The notes: a model not told the origin generated them from the letters alone. A DNA stretch of 24,000 bases from Orbus sturtevantii (GCF_036251875.1 NZ_CP133960.1), one strand, 5' to 3'; shown: positions 9,739 to 23,150, counted from the first letter of the stretch. Numbers and translations: made by a program.

Positions 9739-9740
9739 AT

Positions 9741-10892: not shown

Positions 10893-10898
10893 AAATAA

Positions 10899-11252
10899 TC
10901 ACCTTGCATTTAAAAAATTAACGAGATGAAGATAAATATAATCAGTCTCTGCTTCATATAATTTGAACGATAAAAGTTTTTTTAATTTTCGCCACAGCAT
11001 TTGTGAAGCGAGGAAATGTTCACTAGCAATGATTTCCTCCCTCATATCGTCCTCTAAAAAATTTATATATTCTTTTTTATTATTACGCATGCAAGCCATT
11101 GCTAAATGGGTTATAAAAAAGTCAGCTTTATCTTCGCTATCAATGATATTTTTTGTGATCAAATAATCTAAAATAGCTAAAAGCGAATCGACTGTTGACT
11201 GCTCTAACATATTACTTTGCTTTAGTATGACTAATTTTTCTCTAATCATCAT
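10899..11252 (-). CDS. yhfY: Stand-alone PRD-domain protein, YhfY-like
   Basis: An all-helical protein of about 118 aa with two PRD-type histidine motifs, ITHLAMACMR and YIYLHLVNFL, 60 residues apart. The track ORF starts at TTG 11261. I prefer ATG 11252 or 11249, which follow GGGGGT. Confidence 0.75.
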   Translation of the reverse strand: MMIREKLVILKQSNMLEQSTVDSLLAILDYLITKNIIDSEDKADFFITHLAMACMRNNKKEYINFLEDDMREEIIASEHFLASQMLWRKLKKLLSFKLYEAETDYIYLHLVNFLNAR

Positions 11253-11261
11253 TACCCCCAA

Positions 11262-12185
11262 TTAATACCTTGGTATCATGTCACCATTAACTACTGAGTT
11301 TTGTATTTTTAAAATAGTTTCTTGTTCTAAAATATTACTGATAATAGTTTTTACCACCTGATCATCTCGGTGACAAACGATAACTGAAGCAGTCATATCT
11401 AAAATATCTTCAAAAAAATCAACGGGTAAATAATTTAAATTCTTGAAATCTTTATTGCTAATCTCATCATAATTCCACACCCCAGCATCTATCAAACCAC
11501 TATTAAGCGCATGAATAATTTGGTGTCCAGAGGTTTCAATTAAGGTAATGTCTTTGCTTTTAACAAGCTTTTTTGTAAGAAGCTCCTGATCTAACGAACT
11601 ATAGTCAATCCCTATCTTCATGCCATCTTCTATTGACGATTTATTTTTATCAGAAAATAAAATAACATGACGACTTAAATAACTCTGATCCCCAAAATCA
11701 GCAATAATTTCTATCGGTTCACCCACGCTTAGGGCATGATTTGCTGAATAACGAGAAATAACAGCAAATCGATATGTTTTTTTAACAATGGAATTAACCC
11801 TTTCTTTAGCGCCTCTCAAATAGGCTAAATTTAGCTTAATATTATGTTGTTCAAAAGCGAGGTAAAGACCTGTTGCAAAGCCCTCATACAGTTTGGAATA
11901 CGGCAATGTCATGGTGCCTAAAATAACATCGATAAGTGCATATTTTTGTAAAATAGAATAATCAATAAATTTAATAAATGTGCCTAAATGACCGCGATTA
12001 GAGCAAATGATGGCCTTTTGCTCTTTTAGGTAATTTAATGCATTTTGAACGGTTCCCCTAGCAGCATTATATTTATCCTGGCAGGCACTAATACTCAACA
12101 TTTTGTCATCGGTTTTTAATTGCAATAGATCTAAAGCGAGATAATGAACCATTATTGCTTTCTTTTTATAAAAATGATTATCCAT
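11262..12185 (-). CDS. yhfZ: GntR-type winged-HTH regulator fused to a substrate-binding-protein-like domain, YhfZ-like
   Basis: 307 aa (E. coli YhfZ is about 301). The N-terminus LSISACQDKYNAARGTVQNALNYLKEQKAIICSNRGHLGTFI is a GntR-like wHTH. The remaining ~230 aa are an alpha/beta PBP-like domain. Its stop abuts the yhfY start. Confidence 0.75.
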   Translation of the reverse strand: MDNHFYKKKAIMVHYLALDLLQLKTDDKMLSISACQDKYNAARGTVQNALNYLKEQKAIICSNRGHLGTFIKFIDYSILQKYALIDVILGTMTLPYSKLYEGFATGLYLAFEQHNIKLNLAYLRGAKERVNSIVKKTYRFAVISRYSANHALSVGEPIEIIADFGDQSYLSRHVILFSDKNKSSIEDGMKIGIDYSSLDQELLTKKLVKSKDITLIETSGHQIIHALNSGLIDAGVWNYDEISNKDFKNLNYLPVDFFEDILDMTASVIVCHRDDQVVKTIISNILEQETILKIQNSVVNGDMIPRY

Positions 12186-12196
12186 ATATCACTACT

Positions 12197-13297
12197 CTAT
12201 TCTCTCTTAGCTTCAACTATTGCCTGTTTCAATATTCGAATAATCGTATCAGCGCCTGCTCGATTGGGATTTATTCTTATCATATAATTTTCTGCATTAG
12301 GATCGGATTCTCTAAATGTTCCAGAGACACGATAAAATAAAGGACAGAATTCATATTTTGACTCTGCTCCAACTGGGTTAGTAATTGCCCCATGAATTTC
12401 TGCGACAGCGATAACTGATTTTGCAATTTTTTCAGCTAACCTTACGATAATTACTTTAGATTGAGCATTCACAACCATGGCATCAAGAATATCGGGACAC
12501 TCATGTGAGTTTAACCGTGAACAGACTTCATCACTGACTTGGGATGAAATCGCTAGCGATACTGGTGCATAAATCATCCCTTTAATAACATCTATCGCCT
12601 CGTGCCCCTGAACTTGGCCACCGCCAGAATAATTGTCATGCTTCAATTTTGTAATCTCTTTTTTACGCCCTACAATGCATCCAATTCCTTCTGGCCCTAG
12701 TAGCTTGAAAGATGAAAAACAAGATAGTGTAGCCCCGGCTTGTACCCCTATTTTTTTTGTTTTAAGCGCTGAATAATTATCATCAGTAATGATAAAAATA
12801 TTTTTATCTATTTCCCGAATAGCCGAGATAAGCTCCTCTAAATCATAAGCATCATTAATTTTTTGCCGGGTGACTTGAATCAAAATCCCGTCAAATTTGT
12901 TTTGCTTAACTTTCATCGCCACAGCATTTAAATCATTAAAATCGACTTTTTCGGTACGGATACCGAGCATATTAATTGAGACTTGAGTTGTTGGATAAAT
13001 AGGTGCATCATGTACCAACATCGTTCCACCGTGCCCTACTGTTGCATATAGTGCTAACCTTATAGCATTTGTTCCAGAGCCTCTAATTAATAACGCATCT
13101 TCACTAGCAAAAAACTTAGCTAACACTTTTTCTACTTTCATTGTTGTTTTTGGCTGATTCAAGCCAGGGACTAGCCCTAAATCTCCTCGCGTTAAAATTT
13201 CATGCCCATGAAACGCCTGAGTTATCGCATCAACTAAATCGAACTGTAAGGCAATTGCTTCATCAATCGTCAAACTCTTTAACGGATAAACATTCAT
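12197..13297 (-). CDS. yhfS: Fold-type I PLP-dependent enzyme (aminotransferase/SelA-like), YhfS-like
   Basis: 366 aa (E. coli YhfS is about 361). MNVYPLKSLTIDEA, GDLGLVPGLNQP, HDAPIYPTT, TDDNYS, a candidate Schiff-base lysine in CFSSFKLLGPEGIG, and RINPNRAG at the C-terminus. Confidence 0.8.
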   Translation of the reverse strand: MNVYPLKSLTIDEAIALQFDLVDAITQAFHGHEILTRGDLGLVPGLNQPKTTMKVEKVLAKFFASEDALLIRGSGTNAIRLALYATVGHGGTMLVHDAPIYPTTQVSINMLGIRTEKVDFNDLNAVAMKVKQNKFDGILIQVTRQKINDAYDLEELISAIREIDKNIFIITDDNYSALKTKKIGVQAGATLSCFSSFKLLGPEGIGCIVGRKKEITKLKHDNYSGGGQVQGHEAIDVIKGMIYAPVSLAISSQVSDEVCSRLNSHECPDILDAMVVNAQSKVIIVRLAEKIAKSVIAVAEIHGAITNPVGAESKYEFCPLFYRVSGTFRESDPNAENYMIRINPNRAGADTIIRILKQAIVEAKRE

Positions 13298-13300
13298 TAT

Positions 13301-14182
13301 TTAATTCCTATTCATGAACTTTTGGGGATTTATTGCTAACATTTTATTAATAAAGGAGTCAGAAATACCATGTTCTAACATCATCGGTACAAATACATCG
13401 AGTAAATAAGCGTAACCGATTCCACCAAAATGAGTTAAACTTGACCGTCTCGTGACATCCATTGATAAAAACACCTGATCAACATAACCTCTTTTTTCAA
13501 TCTCTTTTAGCATATTAATTCTTGTTAAATCAGGTAGATAGTTTTGTTTGCCAACAGTATCAAACTCAATGTAGACGCCTTGCTCTAGTACATTTAATAT
13601 CTGATCTATGTCAGGGTTTAAGTCGAGATGGCCAATAACGACTTTCGATAAATCGACACTATTCTTTTTAAAAAAATGAACTTGTTCGATAGCAAACGTA
13701 CCTAATGTAGTGTGGGTCGTAATAGGTTTATTGGTCGCTTTATGAGCTAATACTGCCGCAGCAAAAATTTTCTTTTCATTTAATGTCCAACCATTTTTAC
13801 TTGATCCTATCTCGCCAATTATGTGTGCCTTAATATCTGTGCTCTCAATGCCGACTTCAATTTCATTGATCATAAAATTAGCGATTTGTTTTATAGATTG
13901 GTTAGCAATAAACCCAGAAATAAATTTTTCAGTATAAAATCCAGTAGACTGAATAATGTTAATATTCGTTAAATCGGCTATTTGCTTCACATAAATTGGA
14001 TTTCGACGCATGCCAGCATTCGTTACATCAACGATATTTCTCACGCCTTTTTCGTACAAAATTTTATATTCATTTACCGTCTGCCAAAAACAGTTCAGGT
14101 TTGTATCCTCACTATTTTTTACTGAAGATAAATCTATCGTAGTATGTTCATGCATGTAGGTAATGCCATCGTTCAGTATCAT
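13301..14182 (-). CDS. php: Phosphotriesterase-homology protein (amidohydrolase superfamily)
   Basis: 293 aa (E. coli Php is 292). Equivalents of all binuclear-metal ligands are present: YMHEHTTIDL (HxH), IIGEIGSS (Glu in place of a carbamyl-Lys), ITTHTT, VIGHLDL and LSMDVTRRS. Confidence 0.9.
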   Translation of the reverse strand: MILNDGITYMHEHTTIDLSSVKNSEDTNLNCFWQTVNEYKILYEKGVRNIVDVTNAGMRRNPIYVKQIADLTNINIIQSTGFYTEKFISGFIANQSIKQIANFMINEIEVGIESTDIKAHIIGEIGSSKNGWTLNEKKIFAAAVLAHKATNKPITTHTTLGTFAIEQVHFFKKNSVDLSKVVIGHLDLNPDIDQILNVLEQGVYIEFDTVGKQNYLPDLTRINMLKEIEKRGYVDQVFLSMDVTRRSSLTHFGGIGYAYLLDVFVPMMLEHGISDSFINKMLAINPQKFMNRN

Positions 14183-14196
14183 AATATATCCTTGGC

Positions 14197-15495
14197 CTAT
14201 ACTGACATTAGATTTAACATCACGAGTATGTTTGCAATTACCCCAACAAGTAATGCACCAACTGGACCAATGGCTAAATCGACTAATTTTTTCTTAAATT
14301 TTCCATTCAGTACATACAAGCCAATTACGACTAATCCTCCCCACGCTGGCGCTATTGCGGTTGCAGCGATTACGCCACCAACGAGTAAGGCGATCTCTAA
14401 TACTTTAGTGATTGCCGTTCTTATGTTATCACCGGCATCTCTCATACCTGGGAATTTATCAATGAATAGCGCAAATTTAGTTAAAAGCAATACTTCAACT
14501 GCCATCCAAATACCACCAGCAAAAAATGCTAGCAGTGGATTATTAATTGCACCGCCAATAGAGCCAATAACAAAAACCATTTTAATTCCCGCTGGCGAGT
14601 AAGTGCCTGTTGCTATACCCGTTGTAACAACTAAAGGGATAAAACCAAGCACACGCGCTAACTCGGTTATCGCTGCGGAATCAAAATGGCCTTCTTGATA
14701 TAAGGGAGCGGAAAGCGCTGACTCGGTCACCAAACACATTGATGCCGCTAGTGCTAAAAAAGCCCCAGAGAGCACAAACAGATACCAATACTTTTTGATC
14801 TGCGCCACTCTATCAGCAAAAATATTGGCTAGCTGCTGTTGGGAGTTAGACTTTTCTCGCTTATCTGAAAACGCATAAAATAGCATAAAAAACATACCAA
14901 CCAAGAGAGCCATAGCGTTTGCATTAATCGTAATAGAATTACCGCCTTCAAATTGAAAATGACCAAATCGCACCGTAATCACTTGCGCTAAAACAGTAAA
15001 AATAAAAACGACTAAGCCTTTTTGCCAACCATATTGAAGCGTGACCACAAAAGAAGGGAAAACTGCAAACGCGACTAGCACAACAGAAGAAACCTGGCCT
15101 AGGCTTTGCAAAAAATTATAAGGTAGAAGCTGAAATATCTCTTGGATAAAACCGAGTCCACCACCGATAAGCAGACCATATAAAGCGCCAACAAATCCTG
15201 CTAGGATAATAGTTTGCTTGCCTTTATCTGACAAATAACAACCGATAATATCCGTACCAAGTAAAACGACATGTATGATAATAACGCTTGATGCGATAGA
15301 TTGAGGAATAAAGCCAATGATATAACCGATACCAAAGGCAAAGGCGGTGGTTCCGAGCACGGATTTACTAATTTTTTTTTCTTTGTACTCTAGAACCATT
15401 GGTCGTAAGGCATCATTAAATACCGCAATACCTCGATTTGACATAATCGTTGCGATAGAACAAACACATGCCATGATAATCATATTTAAAATCAT
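14197..15495 (-). CDS. yhfT: Polytopic inner-membrane protein (putative transporter), YhfT-like
   Basis: 432 aa (E. coli YhfT is about 434) with 10 or more hydrophobic segments. AVFNDALRP lies near the N-terminus and GFIPLVVTTGIATGTY and DNIRTAITKVLEIALLVG in the C-terminal half. There is a 7-nt gap to yhfU. Confidence 0.8.
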   Translation of the reverse strand: MILNMIIMACVCSIATIMSNRGIAVFNDALRPMVLEYKEKKISKSVLGTTAFAFGIGYIIGFIPQSIASSVIIIHVVLLGTDIIGCYLSDKGKQTIILAGFVGALYGLLIGGGLGFIQEIFQLLPYNFLQSLGQVSSVVLVAFAVFPSFVVTLQYGWQKGLVVFIFTVLAQVITVRFGHFQFEGGNSITINANAMALLVGMFFMLFYAFSDKREKSNSQQQLANIFADRVAQIKKYWYLFVLSGAFLALAASMCLVTESALSAPLYQEGHFDSAAITELARVLGFIPLVVTTGIATGTYSPAGIKMVFVIGSIGGAINNPLLAFFAGGIWMAVEVLLLTKFALFIDKFPGMRDAGDNIRTAITKVLEIALLVGGVIAATAIAPAWGGLVVIGLYVLNGKFKKKLVDLAIGPVGALLVGVIANILVMLNLMSV

Positions 15496-15502
15496 GTTTA
15501 CC

Positions 15503-15865
15503 TCATTTTTTATTTAATTCATTCATGACTGTTGAAATGATGAAATCCATATCTTGTGAAGTAAACCCAAAAGCAATTTTTCCTGAATTGATGTGATCTA
15601 TAATTTGAGATTCGCTAAGCGTAGTCCCAGGCATACCTAAAGCAATTGCTTTTTCGGAACCAACCAGAGCAATAACCATGGCTAAGGCACCGCCTCCACC
15701 CGTATTACATGCACCAAAATAGTAATCGACCTGCCCTGATTTTAAATCTAAAGCGGCATCAAGATCGGTTTTGATGGTAATTTGATTCTCTTGTGTTTGG
15801 TATTTTTTAATTAATCTTTCAATTTCTTGTTTTTCAATTTGACCGCCGATAACGATTTTTTTCAT
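15503..15865 (-). CDS. yhfU: DUF2620-type small soluble protein, YhfU-like, with an RpiB/LacAB-like Cys-x-Thr-Gly loop
   Basis: 120 aa (E. coli YhfU is about 117). MKKIVIGG... and VDYYFGACNTGGGGALAMVIAL. AAGGGA Shine-Dalgarno 9 nt upstream. It is the first gene of the operon. Confidence 0.75.
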   Translation of the reverse strand: MKKIVIGGQIEKQEIERLIKKYQTQENQITIKTDLDAALDLKSGQVDYYFGACNTGGGGALAMVIALVGSEKAIALGMPGTTLSESQIIDHINSGKIAFGFTSQDMDFIISTVMNELNKK

Positions 15866-15949: not shown

Positions 15950-16218
15950 GGTTTTGCCAAGTAGATCTCAATTTATTTTATATAACCCTGTTGTGGTGCT
16001 TGAAGCGTTGCTTAATCTACAATACCAAGCCTAATTTTGCGTATGATAAAGATAATAAGAAGTTAGAGAACAATCGCATAAACTACCTTTAAAAAGGAAA
16101 AAAATGGTCTGAGTTTTGGTTAAGGACATGATTAAAATCATGGTCGTTTATTCGTGCATACTTTAACGCTTTGCACTATTTTTATATTTTTCTGTATATT
16201 TAGTTAGGTCATATAGTT

Positions 16219-16237
16219 AAGCCACCTAAAGTGGCTT
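16219..16237 (-). terminator. Hairpin downstream of kdgR (weak terminator candidate)
   Basis: AAGCCAC-CTAAA-GTGGCTT, a 7-bp stem about 60 nt past the kdgR stop. No U-run follows on either strand. Confidence 0.3.
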
Positions 16238-16296
16238 CGAGCAGAATGCAGAAATTGTAAAAAAGAGGGCGATACTTATTTAGATTTTTAATAAAA

Positions 16297-17073
16297 TTAC
16301 TTATTAAAACCAATTAACTCAGAAATTTTAGCCGCGGTTTTATTAAGCTCATCTATTAGTTTTTGTTCATCTTCAGCGGTATTACATCTAAAAATCGAAG
16401 TAGATAAGCTAAGTGCAGCGATGATATTACCTAAACGATTATAAATAGGCACAGAAAAGCATCTTAAACCAAGTTCTGATTCTTCATCATCTTTACCATA
16501 ACCACATTGTTTAACCTTATCAAGCTCGGCTAAAAAAGCCTCTTTGCTCATAATAGTTTTGGGTGTAAATTGAATAAAATTCAGATGATCAATGATTTCA
16601 TTTTTACTCTCATCATCTAACCAAGCTAATAGTATTTTGCCAAGACCACTCGCGTAAACATTTGCTTGGTTGCCAATTTTTGATGTTAAACAAAGGCTAT
16701 ATTGCTCTGACGCAACTTTGTTTATATAAATGATCTGCTCACCTTCACGAACTGCTAAATGGATTGTTTCTTTGGTTTTGTCTCTTAATTTTCTCATTTC
16801 ACTATCAGCGATAGCTAAAAAATTTTGATGATCAAGTACTCGATTACCTAAATCAAGCAATTTCAAGTTGAGTGAATATTTATCAGAATCATTTTCTTGA
16901 TTAACATAACCTAGAGATTTCATGGTTTGTAGAAAACGGTAAGCGGTGCTTTTCGGCATCATTACTTTGTTTGATAATTCCGATATAGCAATCTCTTTTG
17001 ATTCTGCTAATACTTCTAAAATTCCAAAAACTTTTAAAACTGAAGCAACGGATTCCGGTGAACTATCATTCAT
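16297..17073 (-). CDS. kdgR: IclR-family pectin-catabolism repressor KdgR
   Basis: SVASVLKVFGILEVLAESKEIAISELSNKVMMPKSTAYRFLQTMKSLGYV and EESELGLRCFSVPIYNRLGNIIAALS are collinear with E. coli and Dickeya KdgR. The neighbouring genes are pectin-catabolism genes. Confidence 0.88.
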   Translation of the reverse strand: MNDSSPESVASVLKVFGILEVLAESKEIAISELSNKVMMPKSTAYRFLQTMKSLGYVNQENDSDKYSLNLKLLDLGNRVLDHQNFLAIADSEMRKLRDKTKETIHLAVREGEQIIYINKVASEQYSLCLTSKIGNQANVYASGLGKILLAWLDDESKNEIIDHLNFIQFTPKTIMSKEAFLAELDKVKQCGYGKDDEESELGLRCFSVPIYNRLGNIIAALSLSTSIFRCNTAEDEQKLIDELNKTAAKISELIGFNK

Positions 17074-17164
17074 GACAAAGACTTTCCTCTCACTAAAATA
17101 AAAGCTAGTAACGTTCTAAATATTAATTAACCAAGCTTATATCTGAACGGCATAAAATGTGCAA

Positions 17165-17173
17165 ATTATACCA
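17165..17173 (-). promoter_or_regulatory. Extended -10 element (TGgTATAAT on the minus strand) upstream of kdgR
   Basis: The reverse complement of 17165-17173 reads TGGTATAAT, about 90 nt upstream of the kdgR ATG in the kdgF-kdgR spacer. Confidence 0.4.
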
Positions 17174-17186
17174 TAAGTAATAATTA

Positions 17187-17516
17187 CTAGCTATTTTTTA
17201 AGAAATCGAGTCGCTGTGGCGTAAATGTATCCAATAAGATCCCCGCCTCTTTACAAACGCAACCATGCATAATATTCGGCTGTTTATACAACGTATCTCC
17301 CGCACTCACGAGATGAGTTTCTCCTCCGATGGTAAACTCAAATATCCCCGATAAAACATAAGTTAATTGTTCATGAGGATGACTATGCATTGCACCGATT
17401 GCATCTTTAGCAAAATGGACTTCTACCGCCATCATCTGACCATTATGGGCAAGAATTTTGCGTTTAACGCCATTACCTAAATCGTCTAATTTCACATCTG
17501 AATTAAAAATGAACAT
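17187..17516 (-). CDS. kdgF: Small cupin KdgF (unsaturated-uronate linearising enzyme family)
   Basis: 109-aa single cupin with metal motif AMHSHPHEQLTYVLSG and a second motif GDTLYKQPNIMHG. Size and context (between kduD-like and kdgR, next to ogl) fit KdgF. Confidence 0.7.
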   Translation of the reverse strand: MFIFNSDVKLDDLGNGVKRKILAHNGQMMAVEVHFAKDAIGAMHSHPHEQLTYVLSGIFEFTIGGETHLVSAGDTLYKQPNIMHGCVCKEAGILLDTFTPQRLDFLKNS

Positions 17517-17607
17517 AATGAAATTTCCTATATGTAAAAAAAGATAAGAAAAAATAAAGCACTTAATCTCTTATCTATTAAATAAACGATACGTTTAATA
17601 TGACAAA

Positions 17608-18408
17608 TTAAGGTTGTTTACCTATATAAGCAAGAATACCTCCGTCAACATAAAGTATATGCCCGTTAACAAAATTAGAGGCTTCTGATGCTAGAAAGAC
17701 TGCCGCACCGGCTAAATCATCAGTAGTGCCCCAACGACCAGCAGGTGTTTTTGCGATAATAAACTGGTCGAATGGATGGCGAGAACCATCTGCTTGCTTT
17801 TCACGTAATGGGGCTGTTTGTGGCGTTGCAATATAACCCGGACCAATTCCATTACATTGGATATTAGCATGGCCAAATTCAGAGCAGATATTTTTAGTTA
17901 ACATTTTTAATCCCCCTTTTGCCGAAGCATAACCTACAACAGTTTCACGACCAAGTTCGCTCATCATTGAGCAGATATTAATAATTTTTCCGCTCCCTTT
18001 TTTGATCATTGAAGGTAATACGGCTTTTGCCATAATAAATTGACCTGTTAAATCGATATCAATGATTTTTCTATAATCTTCGGCTGTCGTTTCTAACATG
18101 GGTTTACGTTGAATAATTCCAGCATTATTGACAAGAATATCAATAACACCATGTTCTTTTTCTATCTGTTTAATTGTTTTTTCTACTGCTACATCATCGG
18201 TGATATCAAATAAGTAACCATGGGCATTAATTCCAGCCGCTTTATAAGCATCCAAACCTTTTTGTAAATTTTCAGCTACGACATCATTAAAAACTATTTT
18301 TGCCCCAGCAGAATGAAGTGATTTTGCGATTTCGAACCCAATTCCATAAGATGCGCCTGTTACTAGTGCAATTTTGTTATTAAGTGAAAATTTATTTAAA
18401 ATTGACAT
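17608..18408 (-). CDS. SDR-family 2-dehydro-3-deoxy-D-gluconate 5-dehydrogenase, IdnO/DhuD-like rather than classical KduD
   Basis: TGASYGIG Rossmann motif, NNAG, and catalytic S...YASAKGGLKMLTK. The residues around INICSMMSELGRETVVGYASAKGG and TPAGRWG resemble gluconate-5-dehydrogenase-type SDRs more than E. coli KduD. Confidence 0.75.
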   Translation of the reverse strand: MSILNKFSLNNKIALVTGASYGIGFEIAKSLHSAGAKIVFNDVVAENLQKGLDAYKAAGINAHGYLFDITDDVAVEKTIKQIEKEHGVIDILVNNAGIIQRKPMLETTAEDYRKIIDIDLTGQFIMAKAVLPSMIKKGSGKIINICSMMSELGRETVVGYASAKGGLKMLTKNICSEFGHANIQCNGIGPGYIATPQTAPLREKQADGSRHPFDQFIIAKTPAGRWGTTDDLAGAAVFLASEASNFVNGHILYVDGGILAYIGKQP

Positions 18409-18472
18409 ATTAGTATTCTCCGTTAAATTTTTAATAGATAAAATCTATCTATTATTTATAGAAATAATTTTC

Positions 18473-19645
18473 TTACATTTCATTTAAAATAGCTGTAGGT
18501 ACTTTTGTTAAGTAGAGAGCAGGCACATCCTTTGCATCACAAGAATATAGTACATATTCATTATTAGGCGAAAATGAAGGATGAGGATGAGTTACTTGAC
18601 GATCGCCATCTAATACTCGCCAAGAGCTATTATGTTTAACCAGTTTATGTACTCTTTTATTTTTTGGCGTCAAAATATATAACCAAGGATCATTTTCAAT
18701 TTTATACCCCCCCGTATCCTTTACATCAACAGGGCTACCAGAACCATCACCAATATAAAGAGAACCATCAAAATTACTCATTAAATGAGAACAAGCAGGC
18801 ATTTCCATAATAAGAGAATCTTGTTTAGTATCTGGATTATAAATTCGAATATACCTTTCTTGTTGTCCTTTCATATAAGAAACATAAGCAAGCCCAGAAC
18901 CGTTTGGTAACCAAAATTCATGGGTACAACTTTCACCTGGCTGATGTTCATGCGCTTTTCTTTCATTTGTTCCATCGCTATTAACTAGCCACATTCGCGC
19001 ATCGACTAAATCGTGGGGACCTTCATGACAAAAAGCAATTGTCTCGTCATGAAATGGTCTAAAAATTGGATGACCTAGCCACACATTTTGGTCAATAACT
19101 GTTTTCGCTTTTCCGCTATGAATATTTATATTAATCAATCTGCAACGCGGATTTTTATCATAAAATGATTTAAACAATTCCCAATCAGTTAAAGGCGTCC
19201 AATCTTTTTTGGCAATCTCGATTCCCACAATTTGTGTACAATCAGAGTTCGCAACCCATGTGCCATAACCAACCCAATCATCAGGAACCGAATAGATGTT
19301 TTTCTCTTCTAACGTTTCAAGTTCGACTCGCTGTAAATTTCGTTCATTTTTTACATAGTATAAAAATTTATCATCTGGCGAGAGAAAGCCACCAAAGGTA
19401 TTATCTCCAGTCCCTTCAGTAAGTTGCGTCGCTGTTTGATCTTTTAGATCGAGTAAATAATAGTTACGTTTTTTATCGAACTCGCCAGCAAAAAGGATTT
19501 TCTGCCCGTCATTAGTAAAACACTTTTGGTAAAAATAGTTACGGTGGCAAAGTACTCCTTCAGGAGTTAATCGAATAATTTCATTTTTAGAATCTTCATC
19601 AATAAACGATGAAAATGTTAATCTTACGATATTTCCCTTAGCCAT
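18473..19645 (-). CDS. ogl: Oligogalacturonate lyase (PL22)
   Basis: 390 aa. CHRNYFYQKCFTNDGQKILFAGEFD, TEGTGDNTFGGFLSP, VPDDWVGYGTWVANSDCT, CHEGPHDLVDARMW and DRQVTHPHPSFSP are nearly collinear with Dickeya Ogl (388 aa). Confidence 0.93.
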   Translation of the reverse strand: MAKGNIVRLTFSSFIDEDSKNEIIRLTPEGVLCHRNYFYQKCFTNDGQKILFAGEFDKKRNYYLLDLKDQTATQLTEGTGDNTFGGFLSPDDKFLYYVKNERNLQRVELETLEEKNIYSVPDDWVGYGTWVANSDCTQIVGIEIAKKDWTPLTDWELFKSFYDKNPRCRLININIHSGKAKTVIDQNVWLGHPIFRPFHDETIAFCHEGPHDLVDARMWLVNSDGTNERKAHEHQPGESCTHEFWLPNGSGLAYVSYMKGQQERYIRIYNPDTKQDSLIMEMPACSHLMSNFDGSLYIGDGSGSPVDVKDTGGYKIENDPWLYILTPKNKRVHKLVKHNSSWRVLDGDRQVTHPHPSFSPNNEYVLYSCDAKDVPALYLTKVPTAILNEM

Positions 19646-19729
19646 AAAGACTCCTAACAGTAAATAATAAATGAAATAAGTTACTTATATTTGATTAGTA
19701 GCATAATAATATAAAACCGATTATTGTTT

Positions 19730-19745
19730 TGTGATTAATATCACA
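19730..19745. promoter_or_regulatory. Consensus CRP-binding site TGTGA-N6-TCACA
   Basis: TGTGATTAATATCACA has both half-sites perfect. With -10 TATTAT (minus strand, 19703-19708) the site centre falls near -41.5 of an inferred ogl start around 19696, which is class II geometry. Confidence 0.65.
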
Positions 19746-19758
19746 TATCAATTAATTT

Positions 19759-19777
19759 ATCGAAACGTCGTTTTATT
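19759..19777. promoter_or_regulatory. Candidate KdgR operator
   Basis: ATCGAAACGTCGTTTTATT has a perfectly palindromic core AAACG-T-CGTTT. It matches about 17 of 19 positions of the gammaproteobacterial KdgR-box consensus as I remember it (AATRAAAYRNYGTTTYATT). It lies in the ogl/isomerase divergent region. Confidence 0.5.
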
Positions 19778-19790
19778 TTATTCAAATCAA

Positions 19791-19818
19791 TTGAAATAAT
19801 TTTTATCAAGTTTATAAT
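19791..19818 (+). promoter_or_regulatory. Sigma-70 promoter for the RpiB-like isomerase gene
   Basis: -35 TTGAAA (19791-19796), 16-bp spacer, -10 TATAAT (19813-19818), about 80 bp upstream of the ATG at 19897. Confidence 0.5.
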
Positions 19819-19896
19819 AAATATATTGAATTTATTTATAGTACTTATTATTAGCGTAGATTATTACTTATTTATAATAAATTTAGAGGATAAATT

Positions 19897-20532
19897 ATGA
19901 AAATTGCTTTAATGAACGAATTTAGCCAAGCAGCTAAAAATCCTATTATTTTGAATGAATTAAAAAATGCTACTGAAAAACATGGTCATACCGTTTTTAA
20001 TGTGGGCATGAATAGTGACAACGATAACAAATTAACTTATGTTCATTTAGGGATTATTGGCGCGATTCTTTTAAATAGTAAAGCTGTTGATTTTGTTATC
20101 GCTGGCTGCGGAACGGGACAAGGTGCACTAATGGCATTAAATGCGTTTCCTGGCGTTAACTGTGGTTACTGTTTAGATCCAACTGACGCATACCTTTTCG
20201 CTCAAGTGAATAATGGTAATGCTTTATCATTAGCATTTGCTAAAGGTTTTGGTTGGGGTGCAGAACTTAATGCGCGCTATATGTTTGAAAAAGCATTTGA
20301 AGGAGAAAAAGGCTTGGGGTACCCACCTGAGCGCCGCGAATCACAAAATGCCAATGGCATTATTTTAAATAACATGAAAAATGCAGCGGCAAAACCACTG
20401 ATTGAATCATTAAAATCCATTGATCAAACATTACTTAAAGATGCAATTAAAGGCGAACGTTTTCAAGCCTGTTTCCTTAAAAACAGTAAAGATGCTGAAC
20501 TAACTAATTATATAAAAAGCTTATTGAATTAA
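19897..20532 (+). CDS. RpiB/LacAB-family isomerase, DhuI-type candidate 4-deoxy-L-threo-5-hexosulose-uronate ketol-isomerase
   Basis: 211 aa. VDFVIAGCGTGQGALMALNAFPGVNCGYC...NNGNALSLAF aligns with the RpiB core [27 protein letters not shown]...DTNVLAFG. It is about 60 aa longer than RpiB, as in streptococcal DhuI. It is divergent from ogl behind the CRP and KdgR sites. Confidence 0.65.
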   Translation: MKIALMNEFSQAAKNPIILNELKNATEKHGHTVFNVGMNSDNDNKLTYVHLGIIGAILLNSKAVDFVIAGCGTGQGALMALNAFPGVNCGYCLDPTDAYLFAQVNNGNALSLAFAKGFGWGAELNARYMFEKAFEGEKGLGYPPERRESQNANGIILNNMKNAAAKPLIESLKSIDQTLLKDAIKGERFQACFLKNSKDAELTNYIKSLLN

Positions 20533-20554
20533 GTTATTCTTATAATCTCTTTTG

Positions 20555-20588
20555 AAGATCGCTTGTTTTAAGTGATCTTTAAATTTTT
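20555..20588 (+). terminator. Rho-independent terminator of the isomerase gene
   Basis: AAGATCGCTT-GTTTT-AAGTGATCTT, a 10-bp stem with one G:U pair, followed by TAAATTTTT. It begins 23 nt after the stop codon. Confidence 0.55.
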
Positions 20589-20728
20589 AACATGTTTACT
20601 AAAATCGAGTTTACATTGCTATTTTTATACATAAGTAAACCTATTTGTTAACTTTCACGCTGTTAACTAGCCTTTTCAATCAAAATACCAATCTACATAT
20701 ATTCAACTAACTAAACTCATCCGCCACT

Positions 20729-20784
20729 CAATTTAGATCTAGCAATTTAGTTCTAACAATTTAGATCTAAAAATTTAAAGTTAG
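20729..20784. repeat. 14-bp tandem repeat x4 (CAATTTAGATCTAG-like)
   Basis: The units are CAATTTAGATCTAG, CAATTTAGTTCTAA, CAATTTAGATCTAA and a degenerate AAATTTAAAGTTAG (10/14), arranged head to tail. Two units carry AGATCT, which includes a GATC Dam site. Confidence 0.8.
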
Positions 20785-20811
20785 CTATTTATAATTTGCA
20801 TATAAATAGCT
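20783..20811. repeat. 11-bp perfect inverted repeat (AGCTATTTATA-N7-TATAAATAGCT) abutting the tandem repeat
   Basis: The arms are at 20783-20793 and 20801-20811 and are exact reverse complements. The loop is ATTTGCA. Confidence 0.8.
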
Positions 20812-20862
20812 TGAAATTAATGATGCTAAAAATTATTAAATATCACTAAAATAACCTAGTCA

Positions 20863-20896
20863 TTGGTAAGTTTTTCATTACCAAAACCTAGGTTTT
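20863..20896 (-). terminator. Hairpin plus 14-bp palindrome downstream of the PL9 lyase gene (terminator candidate)
   Basis: TTGGTAA-GTTTTTCA-TTACCAA (7-bp stem) overlaps the perfect palindrome AAAACCTAGGTTTT (20883-20896). This begins 17 nt past the lyase stop on the minus strand. Confidence 0.4.
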
Positions 20897-20912
20897 ACGT
20901 GCTAAATATGCT

Positions 20913-23150
20913 TCAATTAATGGCTATGTCGCCAATTAATGTTTTTAATTCGCTTGGTATGATTATATTGCCATCATCATCACGAGTAAAAATAAATTTA
21001 ACATCATGTTTCCATAACTCTTTAGTGGTAAAAACTTCATATTTATTGATATTTACTTGCGGACCAAATGAATCTTTAGGTGTGTTTTGCCAACTATTTT
21101 TAATTGAATAGTTATGGTTAAATGATACGACTGGCTGTAAAAATAGATAAGGGTTTGCCCTTAAAATATAATTATATCGAGCACTATTGATCGCAATATT
21201 ATTATCAATTGTATAAGAGCCAGTATTAAAATTATCGCTAAAACCATCCATATTGTTATTTAATGCAATGGAGTTGATAATTTTATGATCAACGGGTTGA
21301 CCTTCTGCCCCTAACTTAAATCCATTTCCAATGCTACCTTTGGCGATATTGGGTTTAGAAAAAGGCAAACCATTAGAGTATGCTACGCAGCCATCAATTA
21401 ACACCGGCTCATTAGCACCATCTTCAATTTTATTATATAAATCAAAACCATCATCAGTATTGTTATAGGATATGCACCCTTTAAAAGCATTCCCCTTTCC
21501 AACACCTAATTTAGCGGCAAAACCGTCAGCATTTTTACCCGATTTGTCCATGTTATTATAGGAATCAGTATTAATCACTTGATTGTATGAAGGCCAGAAT
21601 AAGCGATTTTTATTTTTTGCTGAAATAGCAAGCCCAGTATCACTATTGTTTCTGGTTATCACTTGGTTGATTAAATTATAACTACCAGCGATCCTTAAAT
21701 AGGCAGGTTTATTATCTTTACCATCAATATTGCCATCAAATATTACGTTGCTTATTGACCAGTAATTGCTATCCAAATTAAAAGTGGTATTAATAAAAAT
21801 AGCGTGGTGTGGATTTATAGCTTCAATTTTTTTCAATTGATTTGGCAAGCCACTCAGTGAAGTTGGAATAGTTACACCATCGTAGTGTCCATCCATTAAA
21901 CGGATGATGCCATTTGGCTGAATTGTCTTTATTGCCGTAATCAAATCAACCGGAGAACTAATCGTTCCTTTGTTTGTTTTGTTACCTATCGGTGATGCAG
22001 TAATATCAAGTAAATTATCAACAGTTGGTTTTAATAAGGTGATCGTAAATACTTGCTGATTCGTTTTTACGCTGTCGGTAAAGTTTATCGTAAACTTATT
22101 TTCACCTTGATTTAATTGGATCGGTATTTGGATCAGATCCCCTGCTGAAACCGCAAGGTTTTGATCTACCTCTTTAATAGAAACACGCCCCGACACATTA
22201 GGAAAAAGCTGTAATATATACTCTTTTTTATAAGCTTCTACAGGTGAAGATAATGTTAACGTAGGTTTAATATCGACCATAACTTTAGGTTTTATCGGTA
22301 ACTTTTTATAATCGACTAATGCGTTGTTTACGGTTAGGTTTGAATTTTTAAACCGCGCTTTAGCGTTGCGCGAAGCAAAGAAACCAACATAAATATATTC
22401 ACCATCTTGCTTATCCATAAAACCAGAATAATCATTTGTAGACCATTGTTTAACTTCGCCAGATGCATTGTCTTTCATGGTTAAAATAAATTGTTGAGGC
22501 GTTCTTGTTATGGTCAAATGTATATCTTTTATTTTCTGATAATTAATATTCTCAGCATAATGGGTCTTATTTATTGAAATTCCCTCATTGCCCCAGGCTT
22601 TTTCAACCCCTTCACGAATCAAAGCCGTCATTTTAACTAAATTATCATTTTTTTGATTTTGAGTGATGAAGGCATTCATAATCACATTTGAAGCATTAGG
22701 AAATTCTTCATATCCTTGAGGCTGGGGATCACGTCTTGCAACGCCAATAACATCTCGAACAAACAAACCTGTCGCTTCTTGCGCAGCAGGCGTTTTACCA
22801 TCAACTTCGGGACCAATTTGCTCTAAAGTTACATCACTTTCTAATACAAAAGTTTGGTTAATGGGTAATTGGGTATAAAAAACAGTCATGCCATCGTGTG
22901 AATTTGCAATTTTACCGCCGCGACTCTCGATGATAAAATCGGCAGGTAATGAATAAGACTTATCTGGTGATAAATGACCATTATCGCCGGTGACCCATAC
23001 ATTATTTAAACCGACTTTTTCTGGTTTAATTAAAGAGGCAAAATTTAAATCTGTTGATTGACCAAAAGCAATGGCTTTCCATTCTTGAGCAAAGCCTGTA
23101 CTTATATTAAAAATAGCTAAGCATATAAAGGATATTAATAATTTTTTCAT
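20913..23150 (-). CDS. Secreted PL9-family pectate lyase, PelX-like (large N-terminal extension plus right-handed beta-helix)
   Basis: Signal peptide MKKLLISFICLAIFNISTGFA/QE. The C-terminal half has PL9-type repeats with GKNADGFAAKLGVGKGNAFKGCISYNNTDDGFDLYN, GNGFKLG and NNMDGFSDN. The 745-aa length and architecture resemble the Dickeya exo-pectate lyase PelX. Confidence 0.8.
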   Translation of the reverse strand: MKKLLISFICLAIFNISTGFAQEWKAIAFGQSTDLNFASLIKPEKVGLNNVWVTGDNGHLSPDKSYSLPADFIIESRGGKIANSHDGMTVFYTQLPINQTFVLESDVTLEQIGPEVDGKTPAAQEATGLFVRDVIGVARRDPQPQGYEEFPNASNVIMNAFITQNQKNDNLVKMTALIREGVEKAWGNEGISINKTHYAENINYQKIKDIHLTITRTPQQFILTMKDNASGEVKQWSTNDYSGFMDKQDGEYIYVGFFASRNAKARFKNSNLTVNNALVDYKKLPIKPKVMVDIKPTLTLSSPVEAYKKEYILQLFPNVSGRVSIKEVDQNLAVSAGDLIQIPIQLNQGENKFTINFTDSVKTNQQVFTITLLKPTVDNLLDITASPIGNKTNKGTISSPVDLITAIKTIQPNGIIRLMDGHYDGVTIPTSLSGLPNQLKKIEAINPHHAIFINTTFNLDSNYWSISNVIFDGNIDGKDNKPAYLRIAGSYNLINQVITRNNSDTGLAISAKNKNRLFWPSYNQVINTDSYNNMDKSGKNADGFAAKLGVGKGNAFKGCISYNNTDDGFDLYNKIEDGANEPVLIDGCVAYSNGLPFSKPNIAKGSIGNGFKLGAEGQPVDHKIINSIALNNNMDGFSDNFNTGSYTIDNNIAINSARYNYILRANPYLFLQPVVSFNHNYSIKNSWQNTPKDSFGPQVNINKYEVFTTKELWKHDVKFIFTRDDDGNIIIPSELKTLIGDIAIN

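What the first reader, a model, noticed from the sequence alone, without database searches (positions are those of the whole stretch)
17187..20532. Pectin downstream pathway appears to use a streptococcal-type DhuI/DhuD pair instead of KduI/KduD
Seen in sequence: kdgR, kdgF (109-aa cupin), an SDR, and ogl lie on one strand. Divergent from ogl is a 211-aa RpiB/LacAB-family protein. No KduI-type (two-cupin, ~280 aa) gene is present in the window. The SDR resembles gluconate-5-dehydrogenase (IdnO)-type sequences (ICSMMSELGRETVVGYASAKGG) more than E. coli KduD.
Established knowledge: in Enterobacterales, Ogl products are converted DKI to DKII to KDG by KduI and KduD. In Streptococcus agalactiae the same two steps are done by the non-homologous pair DhuI (RpiB-like) and DhuD (SDR), as reported by Maruyama and colleagues for glycosaminoglycan catabolism. 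KdgF speeds linearisation of the unsaturated uronate.
Inference: this gammaproteobacterium combines an enterobacterial-type KdgR/Ogl/KdgF front end with a Firmicute-type isomerase and reductase back end. That would be a non-orthologous replacement, possibly acquired horizontally. The isomerase gene sits behind CRP and KdgR-like sites, which supports membership in the regulon.
Basis: partly seen in the sequence, partly recalled or inferred. Interest (0 to 1): 0.6.

Follow-up and report, generated by a model that had tools for sequence, protein, structure and literature searches.

The report
Pectin pathway using DhuI and DhuD
This insect-gut bacterium (family Orbaceae, genus Orbus) has no KduI or KduD, and its pectin locus instead carries the alternative isomerase DhuI and reductase DhuD, known from streptococci, which fills a gap in the pectin pathway of bee and fly gut symbionts but adds no new kind of enzyme.

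Summary
kdgR, kdgF, an SDR and ogl lie on the minus strand, and a 211-aa RpiB-like gene lies divergent from ogl.

**Gene identities**
- The 211-aa protein belongs to the DhuI family: NF006753 333 bits, E 2e-72 to S. agalactiae DhuI (4U8E).
- The SDR is a DhuD: NF005488 479 bits, 78% identical to S. pyogenes DhuD. It scores below the KduD and IdnO cut-offs.

**Genome content**
- The 99.9%-complete genome has no kduI, no kduD equivalog and no GH88/GH105.
- It does have kdgK, eda and rpiA.

**Comparative support**
- Among 49 Orbaceae species, all 15 with ogl carry dhuD beside it and dhuI divergent from it. Fourteen of the 15 lack KduI.
- A CRP box, a KdgR-like palindrome and a promoter are conserved upstream of dhuI.

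**Origin, only partly as proposed**
- DhuI falls in a broad gammaproteobacterial clade (Vibrio, Pasteurellaceae, Xanthomonas, Enterobacter), where it usually pairs with KduD. It is not in the streptococcal clade.
- Only DhuD allies with the Lactobacillales enzymes. The direction of transfer is unresolved.

A 2025 survey found adjacent dhuD-dhuI clusters only in Bacillota and Actinomycetota, never with ogl. Its supplement lists the Gilliamella gene counts without comment. This is a new variant of a known kind, of moderate interest. No enzyme activity was tested here.

The parts
16297..17073 (-). kdgR, an IclR-family repressor of pectin catabolism genes
   Evidence: PF09339 plus PF01614. NF011671 KdgR equivalog 291 bits, cut-off 275. 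Conserved at the end of the module in Orbaceae relatives.
17187..17516 (-). kdgF, a 109-aa cupin that speeds ring opening of the unsaturated uronate to DHU
   Evidence: PF07883. Matches the KdgF structures 5FPX/5FPZ at E 3e-24 and 5FQ0 at E 5e-19.
17608..18408 (-). dhuD, an SDR reductase predicted to convert DK-II to KDG. Public databases annotate it as gluconate 5-dehydrogenase.
   Evidence: NF005488 479 bits (cut-off 369). Below cut-off for KduD (TIGR01832, 219 vs 339) and for the IdnO type (NF005983, 281 vs 408). PDB matches: 4Z9X 2e-134, 4U8G (gbs1891, DhuD) 3e-125. 78% identical to S. pyogenes DhuD. Shares the DGSRHP insertion and YIGKQP tail, which KduD and IdnO lack.
18473..19645 (-). 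ogl, a PL22 oligogalacturonate lyase and the only DHU-producing enzyme found in the genome
   Evidence: PF14583 621 bits. 3C5M at 6e-179 and 3PE7 at 6e-175. No GH88/GH105 in the genome.
19730..19745 (.). CRP-type box TGTGA-N6-TCACA between the divergent ogl and dhuI genes
   Evidence: Perfect palindrome. The TTTTGTGA and ATCACA halves are invariant in six Orbaceae species.
19759..19777 (.). KdgR-like operator; core GAAAC-GTC-GTTTT at 19762-19774
   Evidence: Matches RAAAYRNYRTTTY. It is a conserved block (TTTAT..AAAC.TCGTTTTATTTTA) in six Orbaceae species, five of which read AAAACATCGTTTT. Binding by KdgR is inferred, not shown.
19791..19818 (+). Predicted sigma-70 promoter of dhuI (TTGAAA, 16 nt, TATAAT)
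   Evidence: Best promoter match in 16000-21000, 11 of 12 positions. Conserved in relatives.
19897..20532 (+). dhuI, an RpiB-like isomerase with a DUF3666 tail, predicted to convert DHU to DK-II. [quoted passage not shown]
   Evidence: PF02502 plus PF12408. NF006753 333 bits, cut-off 137. PDB matches: 3ONO 1e-84, 4U8E (gbs1892, DhuI) 2e-72, both full length. GCGTG loop invariant. Adjacent and divergent to ogl in all 15 ogl-positive Orbaceae genomes.
20551..20583 (+). Terminator-like hairpin after dhuI
   Evidence: 15-pair stem followed by a T run.
20913..23150 (-). Context gene: PelX-like PL9 exo-pectate lyase, upstream supplier of unsaturated digalacturonate
   Evidence: PF22842. NF041903 PelX 526 bits, below its 1490 cut-off. 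PL1, a CE12-like esterase, a CE8-like pectinesterase, a KdgM-like porin and a TogT-like transporter follow beyond the window.

Best explanation
The window holds the cytoplasmic end of a pectin-utilisation island in an Orbaceae gut bacterium. The genome shares its genus group with Orbus mooreae.

**Proposed pathway**
1. Ogl splits unsaturated digalacturonate.
2. [quoted passage not shown]
3. The RpiB-like DhuI isomerises DHU to DK-II.
4. The SDR DhuD reduces DK-II to KDG, presumably with NADH.
5. KdgK and Eda, encoded elsewhere in the genome, complete the route.

**Transcription and control.** ogl-dhuD-kdgF, and possibly kdgR, are probably one transcript. dhuI is read divergently from its own promoter. 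The shared control region carries a CRP box and a KdgR-type operator.

**What is shown and what is inferred.** Shown here: gene identities, absence of kduI and kduD, the strict ogl-dhuD-dhuI linkage across Orbaceae, and conservation of the sites. Inferred: enzyme activities, cofactor, operon structure and KdgR/CRP binding.

**Evolution.** The isomerase belongs to the gammaproteobacterial DhuI lineage, which elsewhere pairs with KduD. In Orbaceae the reductase slot is filled by a DhuD of the Lactobacillales-like subfamily. The module is therefore a mosaic, not a transplanted streptococcal pair.
For: **Family assignment.**

**Genome content.** No kduI. No kduD equivalog. No GH88/GH105, so Ogl is the only DHU source found. 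RpiA is present, so the RpiB-like gene is not needed for the pentose phosphate pathway. KdgK scores 485 bits against a cut-off of 400, and Eda is present.

**Co-occurrence in 49 Orbaceae species.**
- DhuI in 16, Ogl in 15, and all 15 Ogl genomes have DhuI next to ogl and DhuD on its other side.
- Of those 15, only G043 has a true KduI.
- The strong PF04962 hits elsewhere in the family are IolB-like genes inside inositol (iol) gene clusters.

**Regulation.** Conserved CRP box, KdgR-like box and promoter. No minus-strand terminator-like site lies between ogl and kdgR.

**Same association outside Orbaceae.**
- Testudinibacter: kdgR / kduD-kdgF-dhuI, with ogl about 5 kb further on.
- An Erwinia MAG: kdgF-ogl divergent from dhuI.
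- Pantoea: kdgF divergent from dhuI.

**Published function.** DhuI and DhuD convert DHU to DK-II to KDG in S. agalactiae, as summarised in PMC12838403 citing Maruyama et al. 2015.
Against: - No biochemical or expression data exist for this protein pair, or to my knowledge for any gammaproteobacterial DhuI.
- The characterised DhuI is only about 52% identical, taking S. pyogenes DhuI as proxy.
- Members of the DhuD subfamily have been deposited and annotated as gluconate 5-dehydrogenase (3CXR, 4Z9X title), so a broader or different substrate range is possible.
- The KdgR-like motif is degenerate in this AT-rich genome: 81 matches to the loose pattern.
- I found no convincing copy upstream of kdgK or eda.
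- G013 carries a DhuI without ogl, and some DhuD genes (P0157, P0162) lie in contexts with no uronate genes. The families are therefore not exclusively tied to pectin.
Confidence: 0.85

Rival explanations
1. The annotations are right. The SDR would be a gluconate 5-dehydrogenase / 5-ketogluconate reductase, and the 211-aa protein a sugar-phosphate isomerase of the RpiB/LacAB kind. Both would be unrelated to DHU and merely neighbours of ogl. DHU would then be processed by an unknown enzyme or not at all.
For: - NF005488 is named gluconate 5-dehydrogenase, and the closest PDB entries carry that name.
- The SDR is 44% identical to IdnO and 39% to KduD.
- The N-terminal domain of the isomerase is LacAB_rpiB.
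Against: - The SDR is below the cut-off of the IdnO-type model (281 vs 408) and far above that of the family holding S. agalactiae DhuD.
- The isomerase scores 333 bits on NF006753 against 29-42 bits on the RpiB/LacAB models.
- RpiA is present.
- Physical linkage to ogl holds in 15 of 15 genomes.
- No other candidate exists for the two steps, while KdgK and Eda are present.
Confidence: 0.07
2. The DhuI/DhuD pair serves catabolism of host or dietary glycosaminoglycans, as in streptococci. Its position beside ogl would be incidental.
For: - The characterised streptococcal pair lies in a GAG locus with UGL, a PTS and a heparinase-like lyase.
- The 2025 survey associates dhuD-dhuI with GAG use.
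Against: - The genome has no GH88 family (UGL) hit by profile search or tblastn.
- The surrounding genes are PL1, PL9, PL22, CE12-like, CE8-like, KdgM-like, TogT-like and KdgR.
Confidence: 0.03
3. One reading: both genes came together as one streptococcal or Firmicute dhuD-dhuI unit, transferred into an enterobacterial-type KdgR/Ogl/KdgF locus.
For: - DhuD is 78-79% identical to Streptococcus and Enterococcus DhuD.
- Without outgroups, a clade of Orbaceae plus streptococcal DhuI is not rejected, and its tree even scores 6.8 log-likelihood units higher (p-AU 0.59).
- DhuI evolves about 2-2.5 times faster than DhuD within both groups. So 52% against 78% identity is not by itself discordant.
Against: - Streptococcal-type DhuI is about equally distant (50-58%) from the gammaproteobacterial DhuIs compared, while Orbaceae DhuI is 61-72% identical to them.
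- With family representatives added, the clade that holds the Orbaceae DhuI (35 rows, SH-aLRT 95) excludes the streptococcal clade. The joint clade is 54 log-likelihood units worse (p-AU 0.029).
- Other Gammaproteobacteria already link DhuI to KdgR, KdgF and Ogl, with KduD as reductase.
Confidence: 0.12

Closest known systems
Streptococcus agalactiae / S. pyogenes DhuD-DhuI (gbs1891/gbs1892; PDB 4U8G, 4U8E, 4Z9X), Maruyama et al. 2015 as cited in PMC12838403
   Same: - The same two protein families perform DHU to DK-II to KDG.
- DhuD is 78% identical and shares the family-specific insertion and C-terminal tail.
- DhuI matches at full length with the same RpiB-like plus DUF3666 architecture.
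- KdgK and Eda/KdgA complete the route in both.
   Different: - In streptococci the genes are adjacent and co-directional (dhuD-dhuI-kdgK-kdgA). They sit next to UGL, a PTS and a GAG lyase, and serve glycosaminoglycans.
- Here they are separated by ogl and divergent, under CRP and KdgR-type sites, in a pectin island with no UGL.
- DhuI is only 52% identical and belongs to a different subclade.
kduD-(kdgF)-dhuI 'type H' and kduI-kduD-dhuI clusters of Pseudomonadota (Nishimura et al. 2025, PMC12838403). Seen here in Vibrio, Pasteurellaceae, Alginatibacterium, Rahnella and Xanthomonas.
   Same: - Same gammaproteobacterial DhuI subclade, 61-69% identical.
- Same neighbours in some loci: kdgR, kdgF and, in Testudinibacter, ogl.
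   Different: The reductase there is KduD (67-86% identical to E. coli KduD). In Orbaceae it is DhuD, and ogl lies between the reductase and isomerase genes.
Canonical KduI/KduD route of Enterobacterales (E. coli kduI-kduD; Dickeya)
   Same: Same two chemical steps, the same upstream enzymes (Ogl, KdgF), the same downstream enzymes (KdgK, Eda) and the same regulator family (KdgR).
   Different: - KduI, a cupin of the KduI/IolB family, is absent and replaced by a non-homologous RpiB-like fold.
- KduD is replaced by a paralogous SDR that is 39% identical.
Gilliamella apicola CGC-1 pectin cluster (PL1, PL9, PL22, CE12), Nat Commun 2024, PMC11322527
   Same: Same island in a sister genus. PL22 is ogl. 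The Gilliamella loci fetched here have the identical kdgR-kdgF-dhuD-ogl / dhuI order.
   Different: - That paper describes the lyases and esterase but does not name the steps after PL22 for Gilliamella. It mentions kduI/kduD only for Bifidobacterium.
- This genome also has a CE8-like pectinesterase in the island.

Membership tests
DhuI (NF006753 / PRK09273; RpiB-like DHU isomerase) | N-terminal LacAB_rpiB domain plus C-terminal DUF3666, about 210 aa | tested here: met
   PF02502 at residues 17-113 and PF12408 at 163-209, in a 211-aa protein.
DhuI (NF006753 / PRK09273; RpiB-like DHU isomerase) | Scores above the curated family cut-off and far above the RpiB/LacAB models | tested here: met
   332.6 bits against a cut-off of 137. 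The RpiB/LacAB models score 22-42 bits, all below their cut-offs.
DhuI (NF006753 / PRK09273; RpiB-like DHU isomerase) | Full-length similarity to the characterised S. agalactiae DhuI (gbs1892) | tested here: met
   4U8E at E 2.3e-72 over residues 1-210. 52% identity to S. pyogenes DhuI.
DhuI (NF006753 / PRK09273; RpiB-like DHU isomerase) | Conserved Cys-x-Thr (GCGTG) loop inherited from the RpiB fold | tested here: met
   C71, G72, T73 and G74 are invariant in alignment A1, which includes S. pyogenes DhuI. That this loop is catalytic is my recollection of RpiB chemistry, not tested here.
DhuI (NF006753 / PRK09273; RpiB-like DHU isomerase) | Membership of the streptococcal (type D) subclade | tested here: not met
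   It falls in the clade of 35 rows (34 gammaproteobacterial plus one Flavobacterium, SH-aLRT 95) that excludes the streptococcal-type rows. The joint clade has p-AU 0.029.
DhuI (NF006753 / PRK09273; RpiB-like DHU isomerase) | DHU to DK-II isomerase activity | not testable with these tools
   Needs an enzyme assay.
DhuD (NF005488 / PRK07097 SDR; DK-II reductase) | Scores above the family cut-off and below the KduD and IdnO-type cut-offs | tested here: met
   NF005488 478.8 (cut-off 369). TIGR01832 KduD 218.8 (cut-off 338.85). NF005983 281.2 (cut-off 408).
DhuD (NF005488 / PRK07097 SDR; DK-II reductase) | Classical SDR motifs TGxxxGxG and YxxxK | tested here: met
   TGASYGIG at residue 17 and YASAK at residue 160.
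DhuD (NF005488 / PRK07097 SDR; DK-II reductase) | Subfamily-specific six-residue insertion and C-terminal extension relative to KduD and IdnO | tested here: met
   DGSRHP and YIGKQP are shared with S. pyogenes and Enterococcus DhuD and are absent from E. coli KduD and IdnO.
DhuD (NF005488 / PRK07097 SDR; DK-II reductase) | High similarity to DhuD proteins with solved structures | tested here: met
   4Z9X at 2.1e-134 and 4U8G (gbs1891) at 2.7e-125. 78% identity to S. pyogenes DhuD.
DhuD (NF005488 / PRK07097 SDR; DK-II reductase) | NADH-dependent reduction of DK-II to KDG | not testable with these tools
   Needs an enzyme assay.
Canonical KduI/KduD pathway | A KduI (KduI/IolB cupin) gene in the genome | tested here: not met
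   PF04962 gave no candidates. tblastn with E. coli, Enterococcus and Orbus mooreae KduI and an IolB-like query gave 0 hits. The genome is 99.9% complete.
Canonical KduI/KduD pathway | A KduD equivalog in the genome | tested here: not met
   The best TIGR01832 hit is dhuD itself at 218.5 bits, below the 338.85 cut-off.
'Type D' dhuD-dhuI cluster as defined by Nishimura et al. 2025 | The two genes adjacent and in the same direction | tested here: not met
   ogl lies between them and dhuI is divergent. Their Table S1 lists G. apicola with dhuI 1, dhuD 2 and ogl 2 but no cluster of any type.
KdgR regulon | A KdgR operator in the promoter region | tested here: inconclusive
   A palindrome matching RAAAYRNYRTTTY is conserved in six species next to the dhuI promoter. 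The pattern is common in this genome, and no binding data exist.

The most novel reading that the evidence does not exclude
Orbaceae would carry an all-Dhu pectin pathway built as a mosaic. A native gammaproteobacterial KdgR-KdgF-DhuI-Ogl locus would have had its KduD reductase displaced by a DhuD exchanged across phyla with Lactobacillales, which share animal guts with these bacteria. If so, dhuD plus dhuI is not a Bacillota/Actinomycetota-restricted marker of glycosaminoglycan use, as the 2025 survey suggests. It would also be a dedicated pectin route in insect-gut Proteobacteria.
Probability: 0.45. Interest if true: 0.5.

Novelty: new variant of a known kind. Interest (0 to 1): 0.4.

Why it matters
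- **Pathway gap.** Gilliamella and its relatives are the main pectin degraders of the bee gut. Published schemes stop at PL22 (Ogl), and the two genes that finish the route are annotated as a sugar-phosphate isomerase and a gluconate 5-dehydrogenase. Naming them closes the pathway for metabolic models of bee and fly gut communities.
- **Limits of a recent generalisation.** The finding qualifies the view that DhuD plus DhuI belongs to Gram-positive glycosaminoglycan users and never accompanies ogl.
- **A natural test case.** It offers three versions of one locus for studying non-orthologous and paralogous displacement: Pasteurellaceae with KduD plus DhuI, Orbaceae with DhuD plus DhuI, and Orbus mooreae with an additional kduI-dhuD cluster.

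It does not reveal a new enzyme type or mechanism.

Tried and rejected
1. **Class-level sampling.** A sample of 150 gammaproteobacterial families gave 0 DhuD, but also 0 DhuI and 0 Ogl. It says nothing about DhuD rarity.
2. **PF04962 as a kduI counter.**
   - Its strongest Orbaceae hits (about 368 bits; G019, G044, G012) have no BLAST similarity to KduI. They sit in iol-like clusters, so I read them as IolB.
   - The weak hits (about 110 bits; G043, G013) are true KduI, 68-71% identical to E. coli KduI.
   - G048 has an equally weak hit that I did not examine further.
   - I first misread the G043/G013 KduI as Enterococcus-like and corrected that.
3. **DhuI tree without outgroups.** It could not separate a gammaproteobacterial from a streptococcal affinity (p-AU 0.59). 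Adding family representatives resolved it only marginally (p-AU 0.029).
4. **DhuD nested inside Bacillota.**
   - The first AU test was invalid, because unnamed rows of unknown taxonomy were interspersed.
   - With them removed, Bacillota form one weakly supported side. The direction of transfer is unresolved.
   - Two of the unnamed sister sequences lie in an Enterobacterales-like context.
5. **Genome-wide search for further KdgR boxes.** None was found upstream of kdgK or eda. One loose match lies between the kdgM-like and togT-like genes.
7. **Papers not held.** Maruyama et al. 2015 and Rodionov et al. 2004 are not in the library.
   - What I say of Maruyama et al. comes from PMC12838403.
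   - From memory only: Rodionov et al. predicted an RpiB-like 'spiX' as a KdgR-regulon member.
   - PMC6127512 confirms only that spiX is on their list.

Full report
**1. What is in the sequence**

The minus strand of the reported interval carries four genes.
- kdgR, 16297-17073. It passes the KdgR equivalog model: NF011671 291 bits, cut-off 275.
- A 109-aa cupin, 17187-17516. It matches the KdgF crystal structures 5FPX/5FPZ at E 3e-24.
- A 266-aa SDR, 17608-18408.
- ogl, 18473-19645. It scores 621 bits on PF14583 and E 6e-179 to the Vibrio Ogl structure 3C5M.

A 211-aa gene, 19897-20532, runs divergently on the plus strand. It has a LacAB_rpiB domain followed by DUF3666.

**2. Identity of the two key proteins**

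The 211-aa protein:
- It scores 332.6 bits on NF006753, cut-off 137, against at most 42 bits on any RpiB or LacAB model.
- It aligns over its full length with the S. agalactiae DhuI structure 4U8E (gbs1892, E 2e-72). It aligns better still with the uncharacterised homologue 3ONO (E 1e-84).

The SDR:
- It scores 478.8 bits on NF005488, cut-off 369.
- It fails the KduD model (218.8 vs 338.85) and the IdnO-type model (281 vs 408).
- Its best solved relatives are 4Z9X, 3CXR and 4U8G (gbs1891, DhuD), with E-values from 1e-134 to 1e-125.
- It is 78% identical to S. pyogenes DhuD, 79% to an Enterococcus DhuD, 44% to E. coli IdnO and 39% to E. coli KduD.
- It shares a six-residue insertion (DGSRHP) and a C-terminal tail (YIGKQP) with the Gram-positive DhuDs. 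KduD and IdnO lack both.

According to PMC12838403, citing Maruyama et al. 2015, DhuI isomerises DHU to DK-II and DhuD reduces DK-II to KDG with NADH in S. agalactiae.

**3. The rest of the genome**

The assembly has 2.89 Mb in 2 contigs and is 99.9% complete.
- No KduI/IolB-family gene: no PF04962 candidates, and no tblastn hit with three KduI queries and one IolB-like query.
- No KduD equivalog.
- No GH88 family (UGL) gene.
- No canonical RpiB; RpiA is present.
- KdgK is present at 485 bits against a cut-off of 400. Eda is present, along with the UxaC/UxuA hexuronate genes.

Just beyond the window lie a PL1 lyase, a CE12-like esterase, a CE8-like pectinesterase, a KdgM-like porin and a TogT-like transporter.

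Ogl is therefore the only DHU source found. The only candidates for the two steps between DHU and KDG are the DhuI- and DhuD-family genes that flank ogl.

**4. Comparative evidence**

In the 49 species of the same family:
- DhuI occurs in 16 and Ogl in 15.
- In all 15 Ogl genomes, dhuI is adjacent and divergent to ogl, and a DhuD above cut-off lies directly on the other side of ogl.
- The order kdgR-kdgF-dhuD-ogl / dhuI is identical in five relatives' genomes read over longer stretches (G043, G031, G014, G036, G019) and in a Gilliamella MAG.

The apparently strong KduI hits in three relatives have no BLAST similarity to KduI. They sit beside an IolC-like kinase and a 646-aa IolD-sized gene, so I read them as IolB.

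True KduI, 68-71% identical to E. coli KduI, occurs in G043 and G013, each next to a second DhuD copy. Thus 14 of the 15 ogl-bearing species have no KduI.

This places the window's genome in that genus group.

**5. Regulation**

The 251-bp ogl/dhuI spacer contains:
- a perfect CRP palindrome at 19730-19745;
- a KdgR-type palindrome, GAAAC-GTC-GTTTT, at 19762-19774;
- the best sigma-70 match of the region, TTGAAA-16-TATAAT, at 19791-19818.

In an alignment of six Orbaceae species with 74% mean column identity, these three blocks are the conserved islands. No minus-strand terminator-like site separates ogl, dhuD, kdgF and kdgR, and a hairpin follows dhuI.

Binding by CRP and KdgR is inferred. 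The loose KdgR pattern is frequent in this AT-rich genome, and I found no clear site at kdgK or eda.

**6. Origin of DhuI**

The 80 best matches among one genome per species are, with one exception (a Flavobacterium), Gammaproteobacteria. They include Celerinatantimonas, Alteromonadaceae, Microbulbifer, Cellvibrio, Xanthomonas, Stenotrophomonas, Pasteurellaceae, Vibrio, Enterobacter, Pantoea and Rahnella.

Gene neighbourhoods in those loci:
- kduI-kduD-dhuI in Xanthomonas;
- kduD-(kdgF)-dhuI in Vibrio and Pasteurellaceae, with kdgR beside it and ogl about 5 kb further on in Testudinibacter;
- kdgF-ogl divergent from dhuI in an Erwinia MAG;
- only Gilliamella pairs DhuI with a nearby DhuD.

Streptococcal-type DhuI is 50-58% identical to the gammaproteobacterial DhuIs compared. 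Orbaceae DhuI is 61-72% identical to them.

Phylogenetic tests:
- A tree without outgroups could not reject an Orbaceae-plus-streptococcal clade (p-AU 0.59).
- With 22 full-length family representatives added, the Orbaceae rows fall in a clade of 35 rows (34 gammaproteobacterial plus one Flavobacterium; SH-aLRT 95) that excludes the streptococcal clade.
- The joint clade is then 54 log-likelihood units worse (p-AU 0.029).

I conclude, with moderate confidence, that the isomerase is of the proteobacterial lineage.

**7. Origin of DhuD**

- Ten of 38 DhuI-bearing gammaproteobacterial genomes also have a DhuD. In Cellvibrionales it is 57-61% identical and sits next to KduI. In Avibacterium and Spirabiliibacterium it is 84-85% identical.
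- In the SDR tree, Orbaceae plus these Pasteurellaceae form a clade (100/99). That clade lies inside a strongly supported group (98/92) with Streptococcus, Enterococcus and other Bacillota DhuDs. The Cellvibrionales DhuDs are apart.
- A single clade of all gammaproteobacterial DhuDs is rejected (p-AU 2.7e-5). I named this group after seeing a first tree.
- Whether the proteobacterial clade is nested within Bacillota is not resolved. With unnamed rows removed, Bacillota form one weakly supported side.
- Two unnamed sister sequences lie in an Enterobacterales-like chromosomal context.

A cross-phylum exchange is therefore likely, but its direction is open.

**8. Prior knowledge**

- Nishimura et al. 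2025 (PMC12838403) classified isomerase-reductase clusters in 3,550 genomes. They report dhuD-dhuI only in Bacillota and Actinomycetota, none with ogl, and kduD-dhuI or dhuI-kduD in Pseudomonadota. They note 144 genomes with unclustered dhuI.
- Their Table S1 lists Gilliamella apicola with kduI 0, dhuI 1, dhuD 2, ogl 2, kdgF 1 and no cluster type. The text does not comment on it.
- The 2024 study of the Gilliamella pectin cluster names PL1, PL9, PL22 and CE12. It does not name the later steps for Gilliamella.
- No paper in the library combines Gilliamella with kdgF.

**9. Verdict**

The functional reading is very probably right: DhuI and DhuD replace KduI and KduD downstream of Ogl. It holds for the whole family wherever ogl occurs.

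The evolutionary reading needs correction. The isomerase is a normal member of gammaproteobacterial pectin loci, and only the reductase is of the Lactobacillales-like subfamily.

The enzymes and chemistry are known. What is new is the pairing, the gene arrangement, the taxon and the link to pectin. Interest is moderate.

Noticed in passing
L008:2704-3831 (-), which is G000:C1:1286704-1287831, just right of the window: A PF01095 pectinesterase (CE8-like, 115 bits) lies between the CE12-like esterase and the KdgM-like porin. The 2024 Gilliamella study states that the Gilliamella pectin cluster lacks CE8 and relies on Bifidobacterium for demethylation.
   Followed up: no
L008:3841-5412 (-): A 523-aa protein with two KdgM-porin stretches, about twice the length I recall for a KdgM porin. 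It may be a tandem fusion.
   Followed up: no
L148, L149, L150 (G019, G044, G012) versus L139, L140 (G043, G013): Pfam PF04962 scores IolB-like proteins of Orbaceae inositol (iol) gene clusters at about 368 bits. It scores true E. coli-like KduI (68-71% identical) at only about 110 bits. This is a trap for anyone counting kduI with this model.
   Followed up: partly
L139:1892-5394 and L140:1711-5246: Orbus mooreae (G043) and Gilliamella sp. wkB178 (G013) carry an IclR-type regulator followed by a kduI-dhuD hybrid cluster. This is an E. coli-like KduI with a DhuD of the Orbaceae clade. O. mooreae has it in addition to the ogl-linked module. G013 has it without ogl.
   Followed up: partly
L062:6001-6630: The DhuI of Flavobacterium sp. 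W21_SRS_FM6 sits inside the gammaproteobacterial DhuI clade next to Paraglaciecola (SH-aLRT 96). This suggests transfer into Bacteroidota.
   Followed up: no
L154-L163 (Lactobacillales genomes): A second, very divergent branch of the NF006753 family (33-45% identical to DhuI) occurs in Lactobacillales without DhuD, KdgK or KdgA beside it. Two copies have an in-frame TGA. Its function is unknown.
   Followed up: no
window 8503-15865: The eight-gene yhf/php-type operon directly abuts kdgR. That is the same donor or partner group that DhuD allies with.
   Followed up: no
L165 and L166: DhuD-family genes 79% identical to the window's lie alone in an Enterobacterales-like core-gene context (hflD-mnmA-nudJ-rluE-icd and holE), with no uronate genes nearby. 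The subfamily may therefore have roles beyond DHU catabolism.
   Followed up: partly
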